A stretch of 64,000 bases of DNA from an uncultured Rickettsiales bacterium (GCA_964538615.1 CAZIGK010000006.1:3935-67934), one strand, 5' to 3'; positions 7,508 to 44,153 are shown, numbered from the stretch's first letter. Program-made: numbers and translations. The notes: generated by a model from the letters alone, not told the origin.

Positions 7508-8149
7508 ATGCTTGACCGTCGTGGTATGATGTTTGTTCTCTCCTCTCCCTCCGGGGCGGGCAAAACCACCATTTCCCGCCGCCTGCTGGAGCTGGATACC
7601 AACCTGCGCATCTCCATTTCTGCCACCACCCGCGCCCCCAGACCCGGCGAGGAAAATGGCAAACACTACGACTTTGTGGATAAAGCGAAATTCGCTGATA
7701 TGATTATGAACGATGAGTTTCTGGAACATGCCAAAGTGTTCGATAATTATTACGGCACTCCCCGCGCACCGGTGGATATGGCTCTGTCGCAAGGCAAAGA
7801 TGTCCTGTTTGATATTGATTGGCAGGGCACCCGCCAATTGAAAAACAACGCCCGCAGTGATCTGGTCAGTGTTTTCATCCTCCCCCCCTCCATGCAGGAG
7901 CTGGAACGCCGCCTGCGCGCCCGTGCGCAGGACTCCGATGCCGTGGTACGCCAACGTATGACCAAATCCACAGACGAAATCAGCCATTGGTATGAATATG
8001 ATTATGTCGTGCTGAATAACGATCTGGAGGAAAGCCTGCACAAGGTGCTGTCCATTTTGCATGCAGAGCGCGCCCGCCGCAAACGCTATACCAACCTGCG
8101 AGAGTTTGTGGATCAATTGACCGATGAATACCGCGCCAGCCATGGCTAA
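7508..8149 (+). CDS. gmk: Guanylate kinase
   Basis: ATG at 7508; 213 aa; P-loop SSPSGAGKTT; typical Gmk length and C-terminal helix region. Confidence 0.9.
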   Translation: MLDRRGMMFVLSSPSGAGKTTISRRLLELDTNLRISISATTRAPRPGEENGKHYDFVDKAKFADMIMNDEFLEHAKVFDNYYGTPRAPVDMALSQGKDVLFDIDWQGTRQLKNNARSDLVSVFILPPSMQELERRLRARAQDSDAVVRQRMTKSTDEISHWYEYDYVVLNNDLEESLHKVLSILHAERARRKRYTNLREFVDQLTDEYRASHG

Positions 8150-9464
8150 TCACGCCCTCACCACTCTCTGTATGGCACTGCTATGCATGACCATGCAGCC
8201 TGCCCTGTCACGTGTGGCACATGCGCAATCCGCTCTATCCACAGAGCCACATCCCGCCGCAATCACGCAACCCCCCTCTGAAATACCACTCCCCGCACCC
8301 CTGAACGCGTCAGAGGATGCACAGCCCCTCGCCTCCCCACCCGCCTCGGAACTGGAAAAACTGCTCCACGCCTCCCCTGCGCAGGACACACCATCCTCCA
8401 CCGCTCCCTCTCTCGCGGAGGAACCCGCTCCCATCATCACGACCACCCAGCCAGACACCACACCTCCCACCTCTTCTTCACCCCCCGCCATCCAATCCAC
8501 CCCACTTCCCACACTCGCCCCCACCTCCGCACATGAAGCGGAAAACGCGACGGCTGAAGACACCGCTGCGGATACCCGCACCGCCTACCCGGAGCCAGAG
8601 CACTACTCCCTCCCCACAGACTCACCCCTTCCCATCGTGGGGGATTTCATTATCCATCCGGTCAGAGGGGAAGAAACCCTCTACGATATCGCTCGCCTCT
8701 ACGGTCTGGGTATTGTGGAACTGGCGCTCGCCAACCCAAAGCTGGACGTCTGGCTACCCGGTGTCGGCACAGAGGTGTTGGTGCCACGTAGTTTCATCCT
8801 GCCAGATACCCCTAAACAAGGCATTGTCATCAACCTGCCGGAACTGCGCATGTATGTCTATACCCGCAAGAAAACGGGTCATAAAACCTATACCGATGTC
8901 GTCACCTACCCCATCGGTGCGGGGCGTGAAGGGCTGAACACCCCCATCGGCACCACCACGGTTGTCCGCAAAAAAGCCAATCCCATCTGGTACCCCACGG
9001 CACAAACCCGCAAAGATAATCCAGAATATCCAGAAATGGTGCCCCCAGGGGAGGATAATCCCCTCGGCACCCATGCTCTCTACCTCGGCTGGCCGACCTA
9101 TGTCATTCACGGCACCCACCGACCCTGGGGCGTCGGACGACGCGTCAGCCGTGGCTGCATTCGCCTCTACCCGGAACATATTCCCCTGCTCTTTGCCGCA
9201 ACTGCCACGGGCACCCCGGTTCGTACCGTAGAACAACCCATCAAATTCGGCCTGCAAAATGGCAGCCTGTTTGTCGAAGTCCACCCGATGGACGCAGATA
9301 TGGAATCCATCGGCGCTCCCCAACCCATGACAGAGGAAGACAAACAACTCCTCACCCAGCGTATTCAGGCTATCCCACAGTCACATAGCCTCACCATAGA
9401 CTGGGAACGCCTCTGGGCAGCGGTTGAAAATCCTCGCGGCTACCCCATCCTCATCAGTCAATAA
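8124..9464 (+). CDS. L,D-transpeptidase (LysM + YkuD) with a Pro-rich N-terminal linker
   Basis: Signal-peptide-like N-terminus, a long P/S/T/A-rich region, a LysM-like segment (ETLYDIARLYGLGIVELALANP), and the YkuD catalytic region HGT...VSRGCIRLYPEHI. The start could be the ATG at 8142. Confidence 0.8.
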   Translation: MNTAPAMANHALTTLCMALLCMTMQPALSRVAHAQSALSTEPHPAAITQPPSEIPLPAPLNASEDAQPLASPPASELEKLLHASPAQDTPSSTAPSLAEEPAPIITTTQPDTTPPTSSSPPAIQSTPLPTLAPTSAHEAENATAEDTAADTRTAYPEPEHYSLPTDSPLPIVGDFIIHPVRGEETLYDIARLYGLGIVELALANPKLDVWLPGVGTEVLVPRSFILPDTPKQGIVINLPELRMYVYTRKKTGHKTYTDVVTYPIGAGREGLNTPIGTTTVVRKKANPIWYPTAQTRKDNPEYPEMVPPGEDNPLGTHALYLGWPTYVIHGTHRPWGVGRRVSRGCIRLYPEHIPLLFAATATGTPVRTVEQPIKFGLQNGSLFVEVHPMDADMESIGAPQPMTEEDKQLLTQRIQAIPQSHSLTIDWERLWAAVENPRGYPILISQ

Positions 9465-13343: not shown

Positions 13344-14783
13344 ATGACCCGTTCTCTTTTCCGTGCATACTCCCTTGGCACCTGCCTTACCCTTACTTTG
13401 CTGGCGTTGTCCACCACGGGTGCGCGTGCCGCCACCAGCATGCAGGCTCCCCTGCCGGACGTGGAAATGCACCTGGATGTGCTGGATCGTTATCGCACGC
13501 CGGAAAGTGAACCGGTCCCCTATCCGGATAGCTACCGCTACCAGCCTCGCCCAAATGTTTGGCAAGCCCCATCGTTTCAGGTAGAAGAGCCAACCCAACA
13601 TCAGGGCGGCCCTATCATCATCAAACGTCGCCCCAGTGCAAACCCAACCCCTGCGGCCACTCCTAAAGCATCCCCAACGGTTGCACCTTCCTATGCGCCT
13701 GCGGTACCCACAAAAACCGCCCCCACCAAACCACTGCCTGCTAAAGCGGCCAGCAAACCCAATCCGGCAGCCAGCCGTCCGGCGGCACCGCCGCCCCCTC
13801 CACCCGCTACAAGCGTCAAAACCACCCCACCGCCAGCCGCCCAATCAACGGAGCTACCACCGCTACCACCCAGCGCCCCCGTGACCGTTGATTTACCCGC
13901 CGCTCCCCCAATGCCTCCCGCAGGCAGCACTGACAGCCATCGTCTTCCGCCGCTCCCACCGTCCGGCAATCATTCTGGCAAAGAGCTTCCGGCACTCCCT
14001 CCCAAGCCCTCTGATGCTTCTGCCGCTCCCGTGGTGGTACCGGTTCCGGGCAATGCGCCTGCTGCTGCCCCCACACCAACTCCTGCCCCCACACCTGCTC
14101 CCGCCCCCACACCTGCTCCTGCTGCGGATCCTGCTCCTGCTCCTGCTGCGGCTCCTGCTCCTGCTGCGGCTCCTGCACCAGCAGCACCCAGCAGCAAGAC
14201 CCTATCCATGCCCACCCTGCCGGATGAGCCCGCAGGCACCGGAGAGCCTGACCTCCCCCCACCCGCCGTCCCCGCACGTGATGGCAAAGTCATGCCTACC
14301 CTCCCCCCACCTGCGGATGGTGAAGAACTACCAGAGCTACCCCCCCTACCGGGCAAGGGTGAACCTTTGGCCCTACCCGCCCCTCCCTCTGCGGCACCCG
14401 GTGAGTTAGGCAATATCACGCCACCCGAGTTGCAAACCAAACCCATGATCGTGGCGGATTCCCCCCCAACGCCAACCCGCCTGCCCCGGCTGGAAATTGG
14501 CTTCACTAAATCAGAGACTGCTGTCCCCCTGAGTGAAGAAAAAGTCCTCAATGGTGCCGCCGCGACCTATAAAAAAGTCTTCGCCAAAAACATGACACTG
14601 GTTGGCTATGCCACCAGCCCGAAAGATCAATCCAGCGAGGCCCTAACCGTTGCCCAAAGCCGCGCCAGCGCGGTGAAAGATTATCTGGTGAAACAAGGCA
14701 TTGCCGCCAACGACATCACGGTGGAAAGCAAAACCCTCCCCAGTGGCACCCCGCAGGCGGATAAAGTCGAAATCTTTTTCTAG
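13344..14783 (+). CDS. OmpA-like C-terminal domain protein with a long Pro/Ala-rich region
   Basis: Signal peptide (…LALSTTGARAAT), about 330 aa of P/A/T/S low complexity, and a C-terminal OmpA-like segment (GYATSPKDQSSEALTVAQSRASAVKDYLVKQGIAANDI). Confidence 0.7.
   Translation: MTRSLFRAYSLGTCLTLTLLALSTTGARAATSMQAPLPDVEMHLDVLDRYRTPESEPVPYPDSYRYQPRPNVWQAPSFQVEEPTQHQGGPIIIKRRPSANPTPAATPKASPTVAPSYAPAVPTKTAPTKPLPAKAASKPNPAASRPAAPPPPPPATSVKTTPPPAAQSTELPPLPPSAPVTVDLPAAPPMPPAGSTDSHRLPPLPPSGNHSGKELPALPPKPSDASAAPVVVPVPGNAPAAAPTPTPAPTPAPAPTPAPAADPAPAPAAAPAPAAAPAPAAPSSKTLSMPTLPDEPAGTGEPDLPPPAVPARDGKVMPTLPPPADGEELPELPPLPGKGEPLALPAPPSAAPGELGNITPPELQTKPMIVADSPPTPTRLPRLEIGFTKSETAVPLSEEKVLNGAAATYKKVFAKNMTLVGYATSPKDQSSEALTVAQSRASAVKDYLVKQGIAANDITVESKTLPSGTPQADKVEIFF
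14055..14192 (+). repeat. Tandem degenerate Pro-Ala coding repeat inside the OmpA-like gene
   Basis: The DNA repeats units such as CCCCCACACCTGCTCC and GCTCCTGCTCCTGCTGCGG, encoding [41 protein letters not shown]. Confidence 0.6.
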
Positions 14784-15143: not shown

Positions 15144-17462
15144 ATGGCGGCACACACCATCCACTCATCCTCCCCTTACAGTTTCGCTCCAGCATTCGCA
15201 TCACCGGAAGGACAGGCATTGCTTTCGCAACTAGCGGCCTATGGCCTGTCTCCCGCCCCCTATCCCATGCTATCGCCAGCCCCCCTCGCTTCGGATAGCC
15301 TGACCCGCGCCAAAGAACTGGCTGATGTGCAAATGGCCTACATGCGCCGCTTCACACCGTGGAAAGCACAGCATGTCGAAGAAGTGGCCGCCATGTATGT
15401 CCACCGCATGCACGCACTCGCTCTGGCGCAAGGCATTCCCGTGGGCGCAGAAGACCAGGAACGCTGGCACTATACAGGACTACTGCATGATATTGGCCAA
15501 ACGGTGAATGGACTGCGCGCCCATCTGGAAGATGCCCCCGTCTTCGTGGAACTGAAACGCCAATGGCGGGCGTTGCTGGAACCCCATGCACGCTGGCAAA
15601 AACTGCTTGTACCTGAACTCAACCGCCCTTACCTCTCACTGGAAGAGGCCATTGAAGATGCCAGCCTGCGTTACATCACAGGCATGTATTTCCTGCCGGA
15701 TGAGCTGAATACATTACTCAACAGCAGGCCGGACATCAAAGAGAAGATGTATGACATGCGCCGACATTGGGATGCCGATCACGTATTCTCGCTCATCCAG
15801 CTCCATGAATCCACGCTGTTGGATGATCTGCTCATCACCCCTTCTCTGCATCATGTCAGCTTTGGTGATGGCTCAACCACCATGGCCAGCGCCTATCCGT
15901 TTCAGGCAGAAACCGTAACCCGCCAGACTATTTCCTACAGCCAGTGGCTCTTCAGCCTGTTGGATCGCCTGCAAGCCGCCAGCATGAACCAGCAAAGCCT
16001 CACCAGCATGCTGGTCAATTACAGTGTCGGTTTTGACCACCCGTATTTTGGCGTCCACCCTTCTCTGCTACGGGAATCATTAGAACAAGGCTGGTTGTTG
16101 ACTCTGGCCGAGCACTATTTCAGCCCACGCCTGGGTTCCAACCTACAGCCAGAGCTAACAGAACCCATGGGTTGGTTGCTCCACATGTTGGATATCCCTC
16201 CCGGCGTCAATGATGCTCATGCTTGGGTCATTTCGCAGGAAGCACAAAATCTTCCCCTCAAACCCCAACCGGAATCCGGGCTGGATATAGAGCATTACCG
16301 CCGTGGTCAGGCTATTCTGGCACAACGTAGCTGGAGTAATCAACCCTTCTGCCCTCATTGGCAAGCCTTCTGGGAAGCGGTCTCCAATAATATCCCTCTA
16401 CAGGATTATGTGATTGCGCGCGCCCACAAAGCAGAGCAGCGCAGCCATCGGGAAGGCCGCACGCCCTTAGGGGGAGATGCTGAACTCACCCGCCTGCGCC
16501 AGCTCTCCCCTGCGGAACCCATGCTCCACTCCGATACTGTGCTTGCCCAATCTATCCGGCGGGAAAACGCACGTATCCACCACCAGCAACCTCCTCGCCC
16601 AGACTGGCAGGAGATTCCGGTGACCGAGCTACTCACCATGGCGCGCGAAGCAGGCAAGCAAATGCTGGATACCTCCATCCCACTGCAAACCGAAACCAAG
16701 CCCGATCAATCCATTGTCACCAACGTGGATAAAGCCCTAAACCATTGGTGCATCCAGCAACTTCAACACCTCACCCCACATATCCCTGTCATTGCGGAAG
16801 AAAGCCTGCCGGAAACAAACCGCGCCATTGCCGCCCAACACGCCACCTTCTGGGTGATAGACCCGGTTGATGGCACTAGCCAATATCATCGCTGGCGACA
16901 AGGGGATCTCAGCGCGGATGGCTTCAGCATCAATATTGCCTTGGTCAGCCACGGAGAGCCCGTGTTTGGGGTGACCTATTTTCCTGCCAAAGGCCTGCTT
17001 TATTATAATGATGCAGAAGGGGCATGGAAACAACAGGACGGACAACCCGCCAATCCTCTCGCTCCCTCCCCTCTGCGCTACATGGAAACCGTGCAAACCT
17101 CTGCCCACCCACAGGAAATTGCCAACCTGCTGCTGGATATGCCCACCTCCCGCCATAGCCAGAACCAGCCCATGACCGCCCAGCTTCGTAGTCTGGAAGC
17201 CGCAGCCGGCAATCATCATGTCGGTTACGGTTCGGCAGGTTTCAAATGGTGGGATACTGCCTCGGTACATGCCGTCCTCAAAGCGGTGGGCGGCACCATG
17301 ATTACCCCCCATAATGGGGAAGAACTGCGCTACCCGCAAGGCGGTGACCCCAACGCCGGACAACCCCCGCACGTCAGTGGTCTGGAAGCCACGTTGCGCC
17401 AGCTTGGGCTAACCGGTCTGCTGCATCGCGCAGCGCCATCCGCCGCACAGCTACGCAGCTAG
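15144..17462 (+). CDS. Fusion protein: N-terminal HD-domain region, about 350 aa of unknown sequence, and a C-terminal CysQ/IMPase-type phosphatase
   Basis: HD signature HVEEVAAMYVHRMHALALAQG...YTGLLHDIGQ (HD codons at 15486-15491). The C-terminal roughly 280 aa carry CysQ-like blocks: LTPHIPVIAEES, FWVIDPVDGT (16860), FSINIALVSHGEPVFGVTYFPA, WWDTASVHAV. Confidence 0.6.
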   Translation: MAAHTIHSSSPYSFAPAFASPEGQALLSQLAAYGLSPAPYPMLSPAPLASDSLTRAKELADVQMAYMRRFTPWKAQHVEEVAAMYVHRMHALALAQGIPVGAEDQERWHYTGLLHDIGQTVNGLRAHLEDAPVFVELKRQWRALLEPHARWQKLLVPELNRPYLSLEEAIEDASLRYITGMYFLPDELNTLLNSRPDIKEKMYDMRRHWDADHVFSLIQLHESTLLDDLLITPSLHHVSFGDGSTTMASAYPFQAETVTRQTISYSQWLFSLLDRLQAASMNQQSLTSMLVNYSVGFDHPYFGVHPSLLRESLEQGWLLTLAEHYFSPRLGSNLQPELTEPMGWLLHMLDIPPGVNDAHAWVISQEAQNLPLKPQPESGLDIEHYRRGQAILAQRSWSNQPFCPHWQAFWEAVSNNIPLQDYVIARAHKAEQRSHREGRTPLGGDAELTRLRQLSPAEPMLHSDTVLAQSIRRENARIHHQQPPRPDWQEIPVTELLTMAREAGKQMLDTSIPLQTETKPDQSIVTNVDKALNHWCIQQLQHLTPHIPVIAEESLPETNRAIAAQHATFWVIDPVDGTSQYHRWRQGDLSADGFSINIALVSHGEPVFGVTYFPAKGLLYYNDAEGAWKQQDGQPANPLAPSPLRYMETVQTSAHPQEIANLLLDMPTSRHSQNQPMTAQLRSLEAAAGNHHVGYGSAGFKWWDTASVHAVLKAVGGTMITPHNGEELRYPQGGDPNAGQPPHVSGLEATLRQLGLTGLLHRAAPSAAQLRS

Positions 17463-39395: not shown

Positions 39396-39839
39396 ATGGC
39401 CAAGATTGTCATTGTGGAAGATAATGAGCTGAATCTAAAGCTTTTCAAAGATTTGTTGGAAGCCCATGGGCACGTGACCTTTGAGACGCGCAGTGGGCAT
39501 GATGCCATTCCGTTGATACGCCTGCGTCAGCCGGATTTAGTACTGATGGATATTCAACTGCCGGAGGTATCGGGGCTGGAAATTACTCGCCAAATGAAAG
39601 CGGATGGGCAATTGGCGCATATTCCGGTGATTGCCGTGACCGCCTTTGCCATGCGCGATGATGAAGAAAAAATCATGAAAGCCGGTTGTGAAGGCTATGT
39701 TTCCAAGCCGATTTCCATTGGACCCTTTATTGAACTGGTACATAAGTTTTTAGCGACCGCCGCACAAACATCCACGATGGGTGACAGTGCCACATCTGCC
39801 TCGTCCCATGTGGAAAAACCAGCGGGGAGCCTGAAATGA
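39396..39839 (+). CDS. divK: Single-domain response regulator DivK
   Basis: [26 protein letters not shown]…[15 protein letters not shown]…[26 protein letters not shown] closely matches Caulobacter DivK as I remember it. It has about 20 extra S/T/A-rich residues at the C-terminus, and its stop overlaps the pleD ATG (ATGA). Confidence 0.85.
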
Positions 39840-42800
39840 CCGCGCAGATTCTGGTTGTTGATGACTTAGAGCCAAACGTCAAACTGCTGGAAGCTAAACT
39901 GCAGGCGGAATATTATGACGTGATTACGGCGATGGATGGTTTTCAGGCCATTGAGCAAGCCAAGAAATTTTCCCCGGATATTATTCTGCTGGATGTGATG
40001 ATGCCGCAGATTGACGGGTTTGAAACCTGTCGTCGTCTGAAGGCGGATCCCGCAACTGCACATATTCCGGTCGTCATGGTGACGGCTTTATCTGACCCGT
40101 CCGACAGGATTCAGGGGTTGCAGGCAGGGGCAGATGATTTTATCACCAAGCCGATTAAGGAAGTGCAGCTGCTGGCGCGGGTGCGGTCGCTGGTGCGCAT
40201 TAAAATGCTGATTGATGAATTGCGTCTGCGCGGGGAGACCTCCAGCCAGTTGGCCGGTATTAGCGGAGAGGATCTGGAAGCGCTGATGGATATCACCGGT
40301 GAGCATATTCTGCTGGTGGATGATGATATTGTGCAGAGCCGACAGGTGATTGAATCGCTGGAGCAGCAAGGATTGCTGGTGAGCCATATCTCCGAGCCGG
40401 AAGAATGTGTGGCTGCGGCCATGCAGGGGGAGTATGACATGTTCATTATCTCCACCCAACTGGCGGATATGGATGGTCTGAGGCTGTGTTCGCAATTGCG
40501 TTCCAACGATAAAACACGCTATGTGCCGCAATTGATTATGGTGGATGAGGATGACGAGCGATCCATCATTAAAGGGTTGGAAATGGGGGTGAATGACTAT
40601 TTGGTCAACCCGATTGATTTGAACGAGATGATCTGCCGGGTGCGTACCAACCTGCGGCGTAAAAAATATCAGGACGCATTGAAGAGCAATTACCGCAAAA
40701 GCGTCTCCATGGCGATTACCGACAGCCTGACCGGGCTGTATAACCGTCATTACCTGAATGCCCACCTGGAAAAACTGGTACGTCACGCGCATGATAAATC
40801 CAAACCTCTTGCGTGCCTGATGCTGGATATGGACCATTTCAAATCCGTCAATGATACCTACGGCCATGATGTGGGGGATGAAGTACTGAAGGAGCTTTCC
40901 CGCCGCATTGTTGGGCAGACCCGTTCGTCTAATCTGGTGGCACGCTTTGGCGGGGAAGAATTTGTGGTTCTACTGCCGGGGGCGGATATTACGGTCGCAC
41001 GGGAAATTGCCGAACGGATCAGGCAAGCAGTTGAAATTGTGCCCTTTACCATCAGTCACCCGCAAGGGCCGATTAACAAAACTCTCTCCATTGGGGTAGC
41101 TGCACTGCGCCTGAATGACCCGAAAGATACCGGCGAATCCATGATGAAGCGCGGGGATGAGGCGCTGTATCAGTCCAAGCATCAAGGGCGTAACCGAGTG
41201 ACCATTGCGGAAGATGACGCATTATTATCTTCCAGTTTTTCTGCGGCACATCTGATGGATGAAGAGAAAGAGCAGGCAGCAATGTCTTCTCATGAGCCTA
41301 CTCTGGCACTGGATGAGCAAAACCCGATTTCTTCTGCTTTTACGCCGGGACGCTCCCCGGAGCAGCATCGCGTCGCAAAAACGCAGGATGTGCTGTATCA
41401 GCCCGGTATTATTGAAACCGCTGCCTATGCAGAACATGAGGAAGAAGATGCATCCGCTATGACCGCTTTGTCCGGCTTTTCCTCCCTTGCGGCACCTGCC
41501 CCGGTTCAGCCCTTACAGGGGACACTTTCCCCGCAGGCAACACCGGGTGAAGCACCACTAGCAAGCGGTAGAGAGCCTGTGAATCCGTTTGCGGTTTTGC
41601 CTCCTCCTCCCACAACAACGCCTTCTGTCCGTACAGTGGAAGCAGCCCACGGCTATCGGGCAGACCCGTACGCCAGCTCGGATACAGCCCCCCTTACCCA
41701 GCCACAGAGCAACCTGTTTGGGGTGGGACTGGATGTGCGGGATATTCCGGATACTCCATCCGCTGGCATGTCTTTTTCCTCCCTGCCTGTAGGCACGGAA
41801 GCCTCTACCGCATCGAAAACACTATCAGACGCTATAACCGCCACACCATCCGAAATGGAGCGAGGTGTGCCCTTGCCCTCTACCCCGCCCATGGCTTCAC
41901 CCATTGCTTCATCCACTCTTTCCGGGCAGGCGGAACCTGAGGCAGAGCTGGATGATTGGCCAGCACCAGAGGCGCCTATGGCGTCTGCTGCCTCATCGCT
42001 GCAAGCTGATGATATGGGGTATCTCTCCTCACGTATGCCACGCCCCCGTGAACTGGAGTTTGACACAGAGGATGCGGAACTTACCATGGCACCGGATGAT
42101 GTTGTTCTGGGTATCTCTCCCGCACGGTTCAAAGCGGAGAAGGAAGAGCCTGCCGGATTATTTGGCAAGCTGGTTGGCGGATTATTTGGCCGCAAAAAAC
42201 CAGAAGTGGCAGAAAATCACCCTGTTTCGGCTACCCCTCCACCACGGCCACCGGGAGTACCGACCGCAGACATGGCAATGGTCAGCAAGGCATCCGCTAT
42301 CCCGGTACGTCCGGCATCGGCGGTGACACCTTACACAGCCGATAGTTCTGCGAACCTTGAAGATACAGAGGATGACGGATTTGATCTCTCCCCGCCCTGG
42401 GCCAAAAGCCCCAAAGAAGCGTTGACAAGGCAGGCTGCAACCGCAACAGAACCTACATCCGTATCTTCCACAGAGGCATCACCTGTCGGACACACGCCAG
42501 AAACATCCGTGATAGGAAATGCGGAACCTGCGGTTGCTGCACCGGATGCAGAAACGGTGAACATGCCTGTCCCGCCGCACATACCTGATACAACCGAAGT
42601 GGTAGCTCCTGTCCTGCCGGAGGCTCTGCCCCCCTTGGATGCACACTCCCATCCGGCTATTTCTTCCCCCAGCTTGCCGGAAGCTGCGTCATATACGGCC
42701 ACAGAAAGCCCTATGCCCGCACCCGTAGCGGCCACCGCTCCTCCCCCTCCTCCTACAGCGGTTACTTCTCCCTTTGCCAGCCCGTTTCCATTGACAGAAA

Positions 42801-43486
42801 TGGCACTGGATAACCCGTTCGATACCGAAATACAGCCGCCCTTACGCGAACCTGAAGCTGAAGACATCACGCAGAAGCCAGAGACCACCCGTGATGCCGC
42901 ATTAGATTTTGCCAAAGACTGGGTGTTGGAACTGGATCAGCCGGGAACCGGGGGAGCCGTACCCAATCCATCACCAGAACCGACAGCGTTTACGCCAGCC
43001 GTGGAAACAGTGCATCCACCTACCCTGACACCTGACCCGGCACCTGCCGTGACACCCGCATTATCACCTGCCGTTAGCCCCACTTTGCCGGAAACCCCCG
43101 CAACTGTATCTCCTGTCGAACATCCTGTATCACCATTTGCGCCCCCTCTCCCGGTCGCTGCAACGGCAGAAACTACGCCGATGCATACAGAACCCGCAGC
43201 CGATGCAGGTGCACGGAACCCCTTTACGGTGAGTACCAATACAGCCACACATACCACCCCGAATGGCCTGCTGTTTGGCAGTCAGGTACACGCCCCCGCT
43301 ATTACGGCAGAGCCGCCAGTATCGCCTGTTCAGCCACAAGAGCAGCGTTCCACCCAAGCTCCGGTGAGCAATGTGTTTGGTATTTTGCCCGGTGGTGATG
43401 CGCACAATCCATTTGCGGAATCCGCAGAAGCGTTGGCGCGCCGCGCCGCCAGTTACCATGGAAAACCATCCCATGAAGAGGAATGA
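39836..43486 (+). CDS. pleD: PleD-type diguanylate cyclase (REC-REC-GGDEF) with a roughly 755-aa low-complexity C-terminal extension
   Basis: REC1 has the acceptor Asp (IILLDVMMP). REC2 is a pseudo-receiver ([13 protein letters not shown]). The GGDEF domain has an intact GGEEF (40949-40963). From about aa 462 onward the sequence is P/A/S/T/E-rich, running to the stop at 43484-43486. Confidence 0.8.
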
Positions 43487-44153
43487 TGCGGCCATTCAGG
43501 CCAATGGCTTACGCTACCATGAGGCCATGGCACGTTGTGGTGTGATACAAACCCCGGCTTATGGCACATTACCGCTGGAAGAGCGTGCCCTGATGCTGGC
43601 GGGTGTGTTACCATTTCAGGTGAACCCTGCGGAGGGAGAGGCACAGTTTCTTATCATGCGCCCCAAGGCCAAACATGCGCATCTTCCCCCTCCTGAGTTA
43701 CAGCTTTGCAAAGGCACGCGCATGTGCCGGGATAGCCAGAGCCACCAATGGAGAGACATCACAGACGCTGAATTGCCATTGGCAGCGAGTACAGATGCCG
43801 AGCCGCTGGCGGTCACCGCCCTACGGGAAGGGCACGAAGAACTGGGATTGCTGCCGGAAAATATTGCGGGCATCTATGCGCTGGGTGTGCATGCTTTTCA
43901 AGCCAATAGTGGCAAGCAAAAAACCATGATGCTGTATGGGGTGACCCTGAAAGATACTGCGGCCTTTATCCCCCCCTGCGAGATACTGGCAGCAACACAG
44001 GAGACGCGCTGGCTATCCATGGCAGATGCTATGCAGCTCATGCGCAAGGAACATGCGGTGCTGCTGCCGTCTCTGGTGAGGTCTTTACACGCGGTTATGC
44101 CTGAACTTGCGTCGGTTCTGCACGGCGTTGACGGGCTGCACCCCACCCGATAA
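43473..44153 (+). CDS. Nudix-family hydrolase
   Basis: Near-complete Nudix box: E-PLAVTAL-REGHEELGL (Ex7REUxEExGU). The start is the ATG at 43473 or 43458; both overlap the pleD 3' end in another frame. Confidence 0.6.
   Translation: MKRNDAAIQANGLRYHEAMARCGVIQTPAYGTLPLEERALMLAGVLPFQVNPAEGEAQFLIMRPKAKHAHLPPPELQLCKGTRMCRDSQSHQWRDITDAELPLAASTDAEPLAVTALREGHEELGLLPENIAGIYALGVHAFQANSGKQKTMMLYGVTLKDTAAFIPPCEILAATQETRWLSMADAMQLMRKEHAVLLPSLVRSLHAVMPELASVLHGVDGLHPTR

What the first reader, a model, noticed from the sequence alone, without database searches (positions are those of the whole stretch)
41219..43486. PleD carries a roughly 755-aa disordered C-terminal extension with recurring NPF and hydrophobic-FG motifs
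Residues 1-461 form a complete PleD (REC, pseudo-REC, GGDEF with an intact GGEEF). The characterised Caulobacter protein ends at that point.

Here the same frame continues without a stop for about 755 more codons of P/A/S/T/E-rich sequence. The tail is not featureless:
- The tripeptide NPF occurs four times, at nt 41582, 42812, 43217 and 43406 (contexts VNPFAV, DNPFDT, RNPFTV, HNPFAE).
- A hydrophobic-FG dipeptide occurs five times (NLFGV, GLFGK, GLFGR, LLFGS, NVFGI). Two of these lie in a basic patch, [15 protein letters not shown], in the middle of the tail.

By eye, N and F are otherwise scarce in the tail. The recurrence therefore looks like an array of short linear docking motifs rather than drift. 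NPF is the EH-domain ligand in eukaryotes, and I know of no bacterial reader for it.

A tethered c-di-GMP synthase with a long motif-bearing tail suggests scaffold or condensate recruitment. One candidate scaffold is the enlarged PopZ homologue at 56331-57434.
Basis: partly seen in the sequence, partly recalled or inferred. Interest (0 to 1): 0.7.

Follow-up and report, generated by a model that had tools for sequence, protein, structure and literature searches.

The report
PleD cyclase with motif-studded disordered tail
A bacterial cell-cycle enzyme that makes the signal c-di-GMP (PleD) carries a 755-residue floppy tail here, studded with short recurring docking-type motifs that also appear in related uncultured bacteria, so the tail probably decides where in the cell the enzyme sits, which is still an open question for PleD.

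Summary
ORF 39836-43486 encodes a 1216-aa protein. Residues 1-455 match Caulobacter PleD end to end (E 6e-133). Residues 462-1216 are a P/A/S/T/E-rich, acidic tail that AlphaFold predicts as disordered.

The frame has 0 stops where about 25 are expected. NPF and LFG are the two most enriched of all 3-mers in the tail (4 seen, 0.06 expected each). The four NPF sites and two FG sites merge into one motif, N-[P/L/V]-F-[G/A/T/D] (6 seen, 0.04 expected). Other disordered regions in the window (1,477 aa) contain none.

The tail has no alignable homologue. However, the nearest PleD relatives (58-64% core identity) carry tails of 250-640 aa, and the top enriched 3-mers in six of them (59-64% core identity) are SFG, FGQ, KKK and NPF. 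Ordinary PleDs end within 15 residues of the GGDEF domain.

This is a hydrophobic-basic patch ([16 protein letters not shown]), conserved in P0002, P0004 and P0005, that resembles a weak membrane-binding helix.

Best reading: a fast-evolving disordered tether carrying multivalent docking motifs and a membrane or acidic-surface patch that localises the cyclase. This is a new variant of a known kind.

The parts
39396..39839 (+). divK-like single-domain response regulator; its stop overlaps the pleD start
   Evidence: Pfam Response_reg E 4.6e-26. A REC gene sits directly upstream of every tailed relative examined.
39836..43486 (+). Complete pleD ORF, 1216 codons plus stop
   Evidence: The exact protein is on record from an NCBI contig of 101,798 bp.
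39848..40186 (+). REC1 (residues 5-117) with the phospho-acceptor Asp in ILLDVMMP (D53)
   Evidence: Pfam. Alignment to Caulobacter PleD. D53 is invariant in alignment A1.
40301..40660 (+). Second receiver (adaptor) domain, about residues 156-275; bounds are approximate
   Evidence: Second Response_reg stretch. AlphaFold strands and helices 157-262 at pLDDT 85-94. Aligned to the PleD structure.
40712..41197 (+). GGDEF domain (residues 293-454). Active site GGEEF lies at 40949-40963. The I-site position reads RSSN instead of RxxD.
   Evidence: Pfam GGDEF E 3e-48. Alignment to 2wb4/1w25.
41210..41251 (+). Short helix at the core-tail junction (residues 459-472, [14 protein letters not shown]). 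This tail start is shared with P0002.
   Evidence: AlphaFold with MSA predicts H459-472. BLAST match [11 protein letters not shown] / AEDDAMISTAM to P0002.
41219..43483 (+). Disordered C-terminal tail, residues 462-1216. It is P/A/S/T/E-rich with net charge about -64.
   Evidence: No Pfam hit, no PDB hit, no HMMER hit among 1.84 billion representatives. Mean pLDDT 36 alone and 30-50 in the full-length model. 0 stops against ~25 expected.
41582..41590 (+). NxF site 1: VNPFAV (N583)
41711..41722 (+). NxF site 2: SNLFGV (N626)
42155..42202 (+). Hydrophobic-basic patch [16 protein letters not shown] (residues 774-789), with PhiPhi-x-x-PhiPhi spacing followed by RKK. It lies in the only net-positive stretch of the tail.
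   Evidence: Counterparts: P0002 SLFSALTGIIKKK, P0004 LGNFLPFLKKKK, P0005 LSSFLPFLKKKK. KKK is among the top enriched 3-mers in relatives. Unique basic-hydrophobic score peak at 0.48, next best 0.22. Small pLDDT bump in the tail-only model.
42812..42820 (+). NxF site 3: DNPFDT (N993)
43217..43483 (+). C-terminal motif cluster (residues 1128-1216). It holds RNPFTV (43217-43225), GLLFGS (43268-43279), SNVFGI (43370-43381) and HNPFAE (43406-43414), followed by a short amphipathic helix [12 protein letters not shown].
   Evidence: Helix at tail residues 735-743. Highest hydrophobic moment in the tail. Net charge about 0 here, against -3 to -8 elsewhere.
43458..44153 (+). Downstream NUDIX-like gene. 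The longest ORF starts at 43371, but the likely true start is near 43458-43473. It overlaps the pleD 3' end.
   Evidence: Pfam NUDIX E 2e-4. 39-43% identity to the genes downstream of P0003 and P0002, aligning from ORF residue 70.
56331..57434 (-). PopZ-family protein (367 aa) with an enlarged acidic disordered region. It is not shown to be part of the system.
   Evidence: NCBIfam PopZ_fam E 2e-24. Sequence. No NxF or FG in its disordered region.

Best explanation
The gene encodes a genuine DivK-linked PleD (REC-REC-GGDEF diguanylate cyclase). To its C-terminus this lineage has added a long, fast-evolving, intrinsically disordered, acidic tether.

The tether carries two kinds of short functional element:
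- An array of six N-[P/L/V]-F-[G/A/T/D] sites plus one LLFG. Four of these sit in the last 90 residues.
- One hydrophobic-basic patch ([16 protein letters not shown]).

Proposed mechanism (inferred):
- The aromatic motifs are low-affinity docking sites for an unidentified bacterial partner or surface.
- The patch is a weak membrane-binding or acidic-surface-binding element of the MinD type.
- Each contact is weak, so binding depends on valency. Binding would strengthen when phosphorylation dimerises PleD, coupling activation to localisation of c-di-GMP synthesis.

Shown: the tail is real and coding; it is disordered; the motifs are statistically selected; the same motif classes and the patch recur in orthologous tails.

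Inferred: that the motifs dock to something, that the patch binds membrane, and that the outcome is localisation.
For: Genuine PleD:
- End-to-end match to Caulobacter PleD structures, E 6e-133.
- divK-pleD operon.

Real, maintained coding sequence:
- 0 stops against ~25 expected. The other five frames have 11-27 stops.
- Tailed orthologues were recovered from independent assemblies.

Disordered:
- pLDDT 36 alone, and 30-50 beyond residue 473 in the 1-1200 model with an MSA.

Motifs selected:
- NPF and LFG are the top two of all 3-mers.
- N[PLV]F[GATD] occurs 6 times against 0.04 expected.
- No NxF or FG in 1,477 aa of other disordered regions from the same window.
- The contexts around the NPF sites differ, and no large tandem repeats exist, so the sites are not copies of one duplication.

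Recurrence in relatives:
- [ND]PF is enriched in P0004 and P0005 (3 each, p 0.002), P0003 (p 0.03) and P0006 (p 0.05).
- FG is enriched in P0004, P0005 and P0007.
- In pooled relatives, excluding the window, the top 3-mers are SFG, FGQ, KKK and NPF.

Evolutionary mode fits motif arrays:
- Between P0004 and P0005 the core is 93% identical (dN/dS 0.06).
- The central tail is unalignable, yet motif counts are kept (3/3 [ND]PF, 8/6 FG).
- The module containing the patch is well conserved.

Clade-restricted addition:
- 41 of 46 ordinary PleDs end within 15 aa of the GGDEF domain, and the longest tail among them is 54 aa.

Context:
- How PleD~P reaches the pole is an open question (PMC10212136).
- The MinD targeting helix is weak and acts only at dimer valency (PMC6803595).
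Against: - No partner is identified.
- Motif positions are not conserved.
- The closest tail by sequence (P0002) has the patch but no NPF or FG. Several tailed relatives (P0008-P0010) have neither element.
- Synonymous codon bias in the tail is near zero, against 0.195 in the core. GC3 is also lower, consistent with relaxed constraint on most of the tail.
- The membrane-binding idea failed to gain support in two tests. The hydrophobic moment is indistinguishable from shuffles, although the real MinD sequence fails the same test. My approximate basic-hydrophobic score peaks at 0.48, below the usual 0.6 threshold.
- AlphaFold gives the motifs no extra confidence next to the core.
- There is no expression or protein evidence for the full-length product.
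Confidence: 0.5

Rival explanations
1. The tail recruits PleD into a PopZ polar condensate, with NPF and FG acting as client or sticker motifs for the enlarged PopZ encoded at 56331-57434.
For: - A PopZ-family protein with an unusually long disordered region (367 aa, against about 177 aa in Caulobacter from my own knowledge) is encoded in the window.
- Caulobacter PleD is listed as a polar microdomain client (PMC9926476).
- Caulobacter PleD partly co-localises with PopZ in E. coli (PMC10212136).
Against: - In Caulobacter, PleD localises normally without PopZ, TipN, TipF, SpmX or PodJ (PMC10212136).
- The listed PleD partner is PleC, not PopZ.
- The tail (net about -64) and the PopZ disordered region are both strongly acidic, which disfavours non-specific co-condensation.
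- Aromatic content is only about 4%, which is low for a self-associating sticker domain.
- PopZ lies 13 kb away and has no NxF or FG motifs.
- No co-variation between PopZ size and tail presence could be tested.
Confidence: 0.15
2. The tail is mainly a membrane tether. The conserved hydrophobic-basic patch is a MinD/FtsA-type amphipathic membrane-targeting sequence. The long acidic chain is a spacer, and the NxF sites are secondary or irrelevant.
For: - The patch is the only tail element that can be matched by sequence across lineages: window, P0002, P0004 and P0005. KKK is a top enriched 3-mer in relatives.
- It has PhiPhi-x-x-PhiPhi-x-x-PhiPhi spacing followed by RKK/KKKK, as seen directly in the sequence.
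- It gives the unique peak of the basic-hydrophobic score, 0.48 against 0.51 for the E. coli MinD C-terminus on the same scale.
- It lies in the only net-positive window of the tail.
- Precedent: the MinD targeting helix needs dimer valency (PMC6803595), and RNase E carries such a sequence inside a disordered scaffold (PMC4435900).
Against: - The hydrophobic-moment test is not significant, and the score is below the 0.6 threshold.
- pLDDT of the patch is low in the full-length model.
- P0003, P0006 and P0007 lack such a patch but keep NPF or FG.
- This model does not explain the strong NxF enrichment.
Confidence: 0.2
3. The tail is a largely neutral, runaway low-complexity expansion, or a non-specific entropic or solubility spacer. 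The motifs are by-products of composition or local duplication.
For: - The tail is unalignable even between species whose cores are 93% identical.
- There are no homologues at all.
- Tail length varies from 0 to 755 aa within the clade.
- Codon bias is weak.
- Some tailed relatives lack the motifs.
Against: - The open frame is maintained over 755 codons.
- Motif enrichment survives an all-3-mer correction and is reproduced in an independent set of relatives.
- Other disordered regions in the same window have none of these motifs.
- The motif contexts differ and there are no large repeats.
- Conserved islands exist in the tail.
Confidence: 0.12
4. The motifs mimic eukaryotic ones. NPF (EH-domain ligand), DPF and FG motifs would act on host endocytic or transport machinery after the protein is secreted by a host-associated bacterium.
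For: - NPF followed by A/D/E resembles EH/EHD ligands (my own knowledge).
- Some relatives are labelled 'Rickettsiales' MAGs.
- An ankyrin-repeat protein is encoded nearby.
Against: - The protein is a cytoplasmic response regulator in a divK operon and needs bacterial kinases.
- No secretion signal or secretion system was seen in the window.
- The window encodes a broad free-living metabolism: Acs, ICDH, FadE, a betaine transporter, PhoR and PPK/PPX.
- The literature search found no bacterial precedent of this kind.
Confidence: 0.02
5. The long ORF is an artefact. A sequencing or assembly frameshift, or a lost stop near 41.2 kb, merged pleD with a downstream gene.
For: A weak terminator-like hairpin lies exactly at the junction, 41209-41233.
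Against: - The hairpin is not significant (z -1.2; 4 terminator-like sites found against 5.6 expected) and is absent in P0002.
- No stand-alone homologue of the tail exists anywhere.
- Continuous tailed PleD ORFs occur in at least six related lineages, two of them in independent assemblies.
- The tail start (AEDDA[LM][LI]S) is shared with P0002.
Confidence: 0.01

Closest known systems
Caulobacter crescentus PleD (PDB 1W25, 2V0N, 2WB4, 9G85)
   Same: - REC-REC-GGDEF architecture, aligned end to end (E 6e-133).
- Phospho-acceptor Asp and GGEEF active site present.
- divK gene immediately upstream.
   Different: - Caulobacter PleD ends 5 residues after the GGDEF domain, in ...GKAA. This protein continues for 755 disordered residues and lacks the -AA end.
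- The I-site RxxD reads RSSN here.
RNase E C-terminal scaffold of Proteobacteria (disordered region with SLiM 'microdomains', including an amphipathic membrane-targeting sequence)
   Same: - An enzyme core followed by a several-hundred-residue disordered, compositionally biased region (AEPV-rich in RNase E).
- Sequence evolves quickly while short embedded motifs, including a membrane-binding one, persist (PMC4435900).
- This is the best analogue for how the tail would work.
   Different: - The enzyme is unrelated and there is no sequence similarity.
- RNase E motifs have known partners (RhlB, enolase, PNPase, RNA, membrane). Here no partner is known.
- The resemblance is one of organisation only.
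MinD / FtsA C-terminal membrane-targeting amphipathic helices
   Same: - A short PhiPhi-x-x-PhiPhi hydrophobic pattern with flanking Lys/Arg and Gly.
- A comparable score on my basic-hydrophobic scale (0.48 against 0.51 for MinD).
- The MinD helix is weak and works only on dimerisation (PMC6803595), which would suit a dimerisation-activated PleD.
   Different: - The patch is internal to a disordered tail, not C-terminal to a folded ATPase.
- Membrane binding is untested, and both computational tests were inconclusive.
- The MinD and FtsA sequences used for comparison came from my memory, not from a tool.
Eukaryotic endocytic adaptors (epsin, Eps15 partners, AP180) with NPF/DPF arrays, and FG/GLFG nucleoporins
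   Same: Long P/A/S/T-rich disordered regions carrying multiple copies of NPF, DPF or xFG. They act through many weak aromatic contacts and evolve fast while keeping motif density.
   Different: - No EH domain, appendage domain or transport receptor is known or was found in this bacterium.
- Aromatic density is far lower than in FG domains, and the spacers are acidic and proline-rich.
- This is analogy only, based on my own knowledge.
FtsZ C-terminal linker plus conserved C-terminal peptide, and SSB disordered linker plus acidic tip
   Same: - A bacterial enzyme or polymer core, a variable-length P/A/Q-rich disordered linker, and a short conserved docking peptide.
- Several relatives of this PleD do end in conserved tips...GW...EEGF...EGTF...FKDSQ.
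   Different: - The window protein has no such conserved extreme C-terminal tip (it ends ...GKPSHEEE).
- Its motifs are distributed along the tail and multivalent rather than forming a single terminal peptide.

Membership tests
PleD-type response regulator diguanylate cyclase | REC - REC(adaptor) - GGDEF domain order over the full length | tested here: met
   Pfam finds Response_reg (2 stretches) and GGDEF. Residues 1-455 align to 1-449 of Caulobacter PleD structures, E 6e-133. The AlphaFold core folds with pLDDT 80-95.
PleD-type response regulator diguanylate cyclase | Phospho-acceptor Asp in REC1 (D53 in Caulobacter) | tested here: met
   ILLDVMMP aligns to Caulobacter ILLDVMMP. D53 is invariant in alignments A1 and A2.
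PleD-type response regulator diguanylate cyclase | Catalytic GG[DE]EF motif | tested here: met
   RFGGEEF at residues 370-376.
PleD-type response regulator diguanylate cyclase | Primary inhibitory I-site RxxD five residues upstream of GGEEF | tested here: not met
   The window has R-S-S-N where Caulobacter has R-A-I-D. Relatives P0002-P0005 keep RGSD or RASD. This feature governs feedback inhibition. It is not a defining feature of family membership.
PleD-type response regulator diguanylate cyclase | Genomic linkage to divK (divK-pleD operon) | tested here: met
   A 147-aa REC-only gene ends at 39839, overlapping the pleD start at 39836. The same arrangement is seen in L081-L086.
PleD-type response regulator diguanylate cyclase | Diguanylate cyclase activity and phosphorylation by DivJ/PleC | not testable with these tools
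   Requires biochemistry.
Intrinsically disordered SLiM-bearing scaffold (RNase E CTD-like organisation) | Predicted disorder over hundreds of residues with composition bias | tested here: met
   pLDDT 30-50 across residues 473-1200. P+A+S+T+E make up 58% of the tail.
Intrinsically disordered SLiM-bearing scaffold (RNase E CTD-like organisation) | Short motifs enriched over composition and recurring in orthologues despite unalignable spacers | tested here: met
Intrinsically disordered SLiM-bearing scaffold (RNase E CTD-like organisation) | Identified binding partners for the motifs | not testable with these tools
   No partner could be inferred.
MinD/FtsA-type amphipathic membrane-targeting sequence | Amphipathic helix with a hydrophobic face and flanking basic residues | tested here: inconclusive
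   The PhiPhi-x-x-PhiPhi pattern plus RKK is visible in the sequence. Hydrophobic moment is 0.17-0.28, not above shuffles, but E. coli MinD also fails this test. The basic-hydrophobic score is 0.48, against the usual 0.6 threshold and 0.51 for MinD.
MinD/FtsA-type amphipathic membrane-targeting sequence | Binds anionic membranes | not testable with these tools
   Requires liposome or in vivo assays.
EH-domain ligand (eukaryotic NPF motif) | NPF tripeptide in a disordered context | tested here: met
   Four NPF sites in disordered sequence.
EH-domain ligand (eukaryotic NPF motif) | An EH-domain reader in the same compartment | not tested
   None of the roughly 45 window ORFs scanned matched an EH or EF-hand family. 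The rest of the genome was not available, so I do not file the tail under this family.
PopZ client | Direct binding to PopZ or PopZ-dependent polar localisation | not testable with these tools
   Only indirect evidence exists. A PopZ gene is present. Caulobacter PleD localises independently of PopZ (PMC10212136).

The most novel reading that the evidence does not exclude
An uncultured alphaproteobacterial clade has evolved a eukaryote-style system for placing the cell-cycle c-di-GMP synthase. It would rely on multivalent aromatic short linear motifs (N-P/L/V-F, xFG) in a long disordered tail, read by an undiscovered bacterial motif-binding domain or a polar assembly, together with a dimer-dependent membrane patch. 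If so, it would provide the missing handle on how PleD is recruited to its site of action. It would also define a new class of bacterial SLiM and reader.
Probability: 0.25. Interest if true: 0.8.

Novelty: new variant of a known kind. Interest (0 to 1): 0.6.

Why it matters
PleD is the textbook diguanylate cyclase of the alphaproteobacterial cell cycle. A 2023 review states that it is still unclear how the active PleD dimer is recruited to the pole, and no known polarity factor is required (PMC10212136).

A natural PleD variant that carries its own long, motif-bearing tether gives a concrete experimental handle. The motifs and the patch are small, mutable and transplantable. They can be used as bait to find their reader.

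More broadly, the case would add a well-supported example of motif-array evolution in a bacterial disordered region: unalignable spacers with conserved motif class and density. That mode is well known for eukaryotic FG and NPF proteins and for RNase E. I found no report of it for a c-di-GMP enzyme in the literature I could search.

Tried and rejected
Homology to the tail:
- The word-indexed search returned only the protein itself.
- Exhaustive HMMER against 1.84 billion representatives found nothing.
- A metagenome scan found nothing.
- PDB and Pfam gave no hits.
- Conclusion: dN/dS on the window's own tail is impossible. I used the P0004/P0005 pair as a proxy. Their tails align poorly and dS is saturated (about 1.9), so the tail dN/dS of 0.28 is only indicative.

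Other tests:
- Exact-sequence look-up of the window protein's contig returned no record.
- The amphipathic-helix test by hydrophobic moment was uninformative, because genuine MinD sequences fail it too.
- The basic-hydrophobic score, my approximation of the published scale, was sub-threshold.
- AlphaFold of residues 1-1200 with an MSA, run to detect tail motifs docking on the core, showed no gain in confidence.
- The terminator-like hairpin at the core-tail junction is not significant and not conserved.
- Antisense and alternative-frame ORFs inside the tail have no Pfam matches and read as shadow ORFs.
- No tandem DNA repeats explain the motifs.
- Literature searches for tailed PleD, disordered diguanylate cyclases, bacterial NPF readers and bacterial FG repeats found nothing relevant.

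Excluded from the tail statistics:
- P0015 was dropped from the pooled tests. Its 'tail' looks globular.
- P0020 (reads like another frame), P0021 (globular) and P0022 (PleD-FliF chimera) were never included in the tail set.

Full report
**1. The observation**

The window contains one uninterrupted ORF, 39836..43486 (+), encoding 1216 aa. Pfam finds two receiver stretches (best 5-117) and a GGDEF domain (293-454). It finds nothing in residues 462-1216.

The core aligns end to end with the solved Caulobacter PleD structures: query 1-455 against chain 1-449, E 6e-133. The phospho-acceptor Asp (ILLDVMMP) and the GGEEF active site are conserved. Caulobacter PleD ends five residues after that alignment, at ...GRNAVVGKAA. 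A 147-aa receiver-only gene (divK-like) ends at 39839, overlapping the pleD start.

**2. Is it more than chance, and is it real coding sequence?**

- Composition-preserving shuffles expect 0.06 NPF and 0.16 [LIVM]FG. The tail has 4 and 5, and none of 20,000 shuffles reached either count.
LFG and NPF come first and second (p about 5e-7 each, about 4e-3 after correction for 8000 words). The next best is about 2e-3 uncorrected.
- NPF occurs once in the other ~18,000 residues of window ORFs.
- Four other disordered regions in the same window serve as a control. They come from a YkuD protein, an OmpA-family protein, an ankyrin protein and PopZ. Together they hold 1,477 aa with 16 F and 27 N, yet contain no NxF and no FG.
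- The contexts around the NPF sites differ, and the tail has no large tandem repeat, so the sites are not copies of one duplication.
- The tail frame has no stop where ~25 are expected. The other five frames have 11-27 stops.
- Synonymous codon bias is weaker than in the core (about 0 against 0.195), and GC3 is lower (0.48 against 0.60). This suggests relaxed constraint on most positions.
- ORFs on the opposite strand and in other frames within the tail match no family.

**3. Structure**

AlphaFold on the tail alone gives mean pLDDT 36. There are two small bumps, one at the [16 protein letters not shown] patch and one at a short helix straight after the last NPF.

Residues 1-1200 were also predicted with an 18-sequence alignment. 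The three core domains fold confidently (pLDDT up to 95). A short helix forms at 459-472. Everything from about 473 onward stays at pLDDT 30-50, and no tail motif gains confidence beside the core, so intramolecular docking is not indicated.

The tail has net charge about -64. The only net-positive 50-residue window is the one holding the patch.

**4. Relatives**

The tail has no alignable homologue. This held in the word-indexed search (self only), exhaustive HMMER against 1.84 billion representatives (0 hits), a metagenome scan and the PDB.

The core, however, identifies a clade of uncultured Alphaproteobacteria in which PleD often has a tail.

- Among representative genomes, the 12 complete PleDs with cores at least 53% identical have tails of 0-274 aa.
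- The protein database holds PleDs of 672-1099 aa whose only domains are REC and GGDEF: P0002-P0019, with 44-64% core identity.
- These genes sit in the same divK-pleD operon. P0004 and P0003 were each assembled independently in two datasets.
- The window, P0002 and P0003 also share a downstream NUDIX-like gene.
- By contrast, of 46 complete PleDs at 33-51% identity from metagenomes, 41 end within 15 residues of the GGDEF domain and none has more than 54.

The tail is therefore a clade-restricted addition, not an assembly error.

**5. Are the motifs conserved?**

Motif positions are not conserved, but motif class is.

- [ND]PF is enriched in P0004 and P0005 (3 each, p 0.002). It is present in P0003 (p 0.03) and in P0006, which ends ...PPNPFARSNRQ (p 0.05).
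- FG is enriched in P0004 (8), P0005 (6) and P0007 (9 SFG-type repeats).
- Pooling P0002-P0007 without the window, the most enriched 3-mers are SFG (11 against 0.37 expected), FGQ, KKK and NPF (6 against 0.27, in four tails).
- P0004 and P0005 are syntenic orthologues. Their cores are 93% identical (dN/dS 0.06). Their central tails cannot be aligned meaningfully (45% identity in a forced alignment with 145 gap columns). Motif counts are nevertheless retained.
- A C-terminal module including ...FLPFLKKKK... is well conserved between P0004 and P0005.

This pattern of fast spacers with persistent motif density is what is expected of functional short linear motifs. It is the mode described for RNase E microdomains (PMC4435900).

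There are counter-examples. P0002, the closest tail by sequence, has no NPF or FG. P0008-P0010 lack both motif types.

**6. Re-reading the motifs**

- *One N-x-F motif.* SNLFGV and SNVFGI share the Asn of the NPF sites. N-[PLV]-F-[GATD] occurs six times against 0.04 expected. Together with GLLFGS, four of these sites sit in the last 90 residues, which are nearly uncharged and end in a short amphipathic helix.
- *A hydrophobic-basic patch.* GLFGK and GLFGR belong to a single element, [17 protein letters not shown]0002 has a counterpart (SLFSALTGIIKKK), aligned by BLAST together with the shared tail start AEDDA[LM][LI]S. P0004 and P0005 also have counterparts (LGNFLPFLKKKK, LSSFLPFLKKKK).

The patch has a PhiPhi-x-x-PhiPhi-x-x-PhiPhi pattern followed by basic residues. 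This recalls the MinD and FtsA membrane-targeting helices (sequences from my own knowledge). Two computational tests were inconclusive.

- The hydrophobic moment does not exceed shuffles, but MinD's own sequence fails the same test.
- On my approximation of a basic-hydrophobic scale, the patch is the single peak of the tail. It scores 0.48, against 0.22 for the next best and 0.51 for MinD, and stays below the customary 0.6.

**7. Mechanism**

The best-supported reading is a disordered tether that localises the cyclase through many weak contacts. Aromatic N-x-F/xFG sites would dock to an unidentified partner. A hydrophobic-basic patch would bind membrane or an acidic surface.

MinD-type helices bind only at dimer valency (PMC6803595). 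PleD is activated by phosphorylation-driven dimerisation (PMC10212136). Such a tail would therefore naturally couple activation to placement. These functional steps are inferences.

- The PopZ gene is real, but it lies 13 kb away.
- Both the tail and the PopZ disordered region are strongly acidic.
- Caulobacter PleD localises normally without PopZ or the other known polarity factors, although it partly co-localises with PopZ in E. coli (PMC10212136).

Eukaryotic mimicry is unlikely. This is a cytoplasmic response regulator in an organism with a broad free-living metabolism. Pure drift is hard to reconcile with sections 2 and 5.

**8. Organism**

SHMT is at most 76% identical to any database protein. 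Named neighbours such as Thalassobaculum, Oceanibaculum, Pyruvatibacter and 'Rickettsiales' MAGs sit at 72-74%. The source is a deep-branching, uncultured alphaproteobacterium.

**9. Comparison and novelty**

- The core is a member of the PleD family. All structural features I tested are met, except that the feedback I-site RxxD reads RSSN.
- The tail belongs to no known family.
- In organisation it works most like the RNase E C-terminal scaffold, or like the FtsZ and SSB arrangement of a linker plus a docking peptide.
- The resemblance to eukaryotic NPF and FG proteins is analogy only.
- I found no description of tailed PleDs or of disordered, motif-bearing diguanylate cyclases in the searchable literature.

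I rate this a new variant of a known kind. It is moderately surprising to specialists, and it is useful because PleD's polar recruitment is an acknowledged open question.

**10. Verdict**

Interest is 0.6.

Noticed in passing
Loci L012-L051 and L087-L127; PDB 9g85/1w25; compare window 43470-43483: Most ordinary short PleDs end in '-AA': 55 of 70 with cores under 52% identical to the window. Caulobacter PleD ends ...GRNAVVGKAA. None of the 12 loci in the window's own clade does, and none of the 17 tailed proteins (P0001-P0019 without P0015 and P0011, which is L004). A C-terminal Ala-Ala is the hallmark of ssrA/CtrA-type ClpXP degrons (my own knowledge). The tailed clade may therefore have lost a turnover signal. 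I found no paper saying PleD is a ClpXP substrate.
   Followed up: partly
C-termini of L003, L007, L008, P0004, P0005 (...GW); P0009-P0013, L005, L050 (...GTF, ...EGF, ...SGF, ...KFF, ...SEF, ...ESF); L001, L002, P0007 (...F[VI]V[KR]FKDSQ): Within the window's PleD clade, both short-tailed and long-tailed proteins often end in a conserved aromatic tip or a conserved FVVKFKDSQ peptide. This suggests the tail was inserted between the GGDEF domain and a terminal docking peptide, as in FtsZ or SSB. The window protein itself has no such tip (it ends ...SHEEE).
   Followed up: partly
window 40919-40930 (residues 362-365): The primary inhibitory I-site, RxxD five residues before GGEEF, reads RSSN in this PleD. 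Caulobacter has RAID, and relatives P0002-P0005 have RGSD or RASD. Product feedback inhibition may be weakened.
   Followed up: partly
window 41209-41233 (+): A terminator-like hairpin followed by a T-run lies exactly at the core-tail junction. Its folding z-score is only -1.2. Terminator-like sites in the region are not above chance (4 found, 5.6 expected). P0002's locus has no equivalent. It is most likely chance.
   Followed up: yes
window 56331-57434 (-) and 54316-56259 (-): The PopZ-family protein is 367 aa with a very long acidic disordered region. It scores below NCBIfam's cut-off (87.7 against 125 bits) because of this insertion. Immediately next to it is a 647-aa ankyrin-repeat protein with about 500 aa of disordered sequence, which is an unusual neighbour for popZ.
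   Followed up: partly
window 13344-14783 (+) and 8124-9464 (+): An OmpA-family protein and a YkuD L,D-transpeptidase both carry very long P/A/T-rich low-complexity regions of about 430 and 220 aa. Long disordered insertions seem common in this genome. I used these regions as within-genome controls.
   Followed up: partly
window 15144-17462 (+): A 772-aa protein has a CysQ-like 3'(2'),5'-bisphosphate nucleotidase domain only in residues 495-735. The N-terminal ~490 residues match no NCBIfam model.
   Followed up: no
window 43371-44153 (+); L083 7362-7994; L086 8524-9129: A NUDIX-like gene follows pleD and overlaps its 3' end. It is conserved downstream of the tailed PleDs P0003 and P0002 (39-43% identity) but not downstream of P0004 or P0005. 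The homology begins at residue 70 of the longest ORF, so the true start is probably near 43458-43473.
   Followed up: partly
Proteins P0015, P0020, P0021, P0022: Some long 'PleD' database entries are not disordered-tail variants. P0022 is fused to FliF-like sequence. P0021 and P0015 continue into globular-looking sequence. P0020 reads like an out-of-frame translation. They may be chimeric assemblies or true fusions. P0015 was excluded from the pooled motif tests, and P0020-P0022 were never in the tail set.
   Followed up: no
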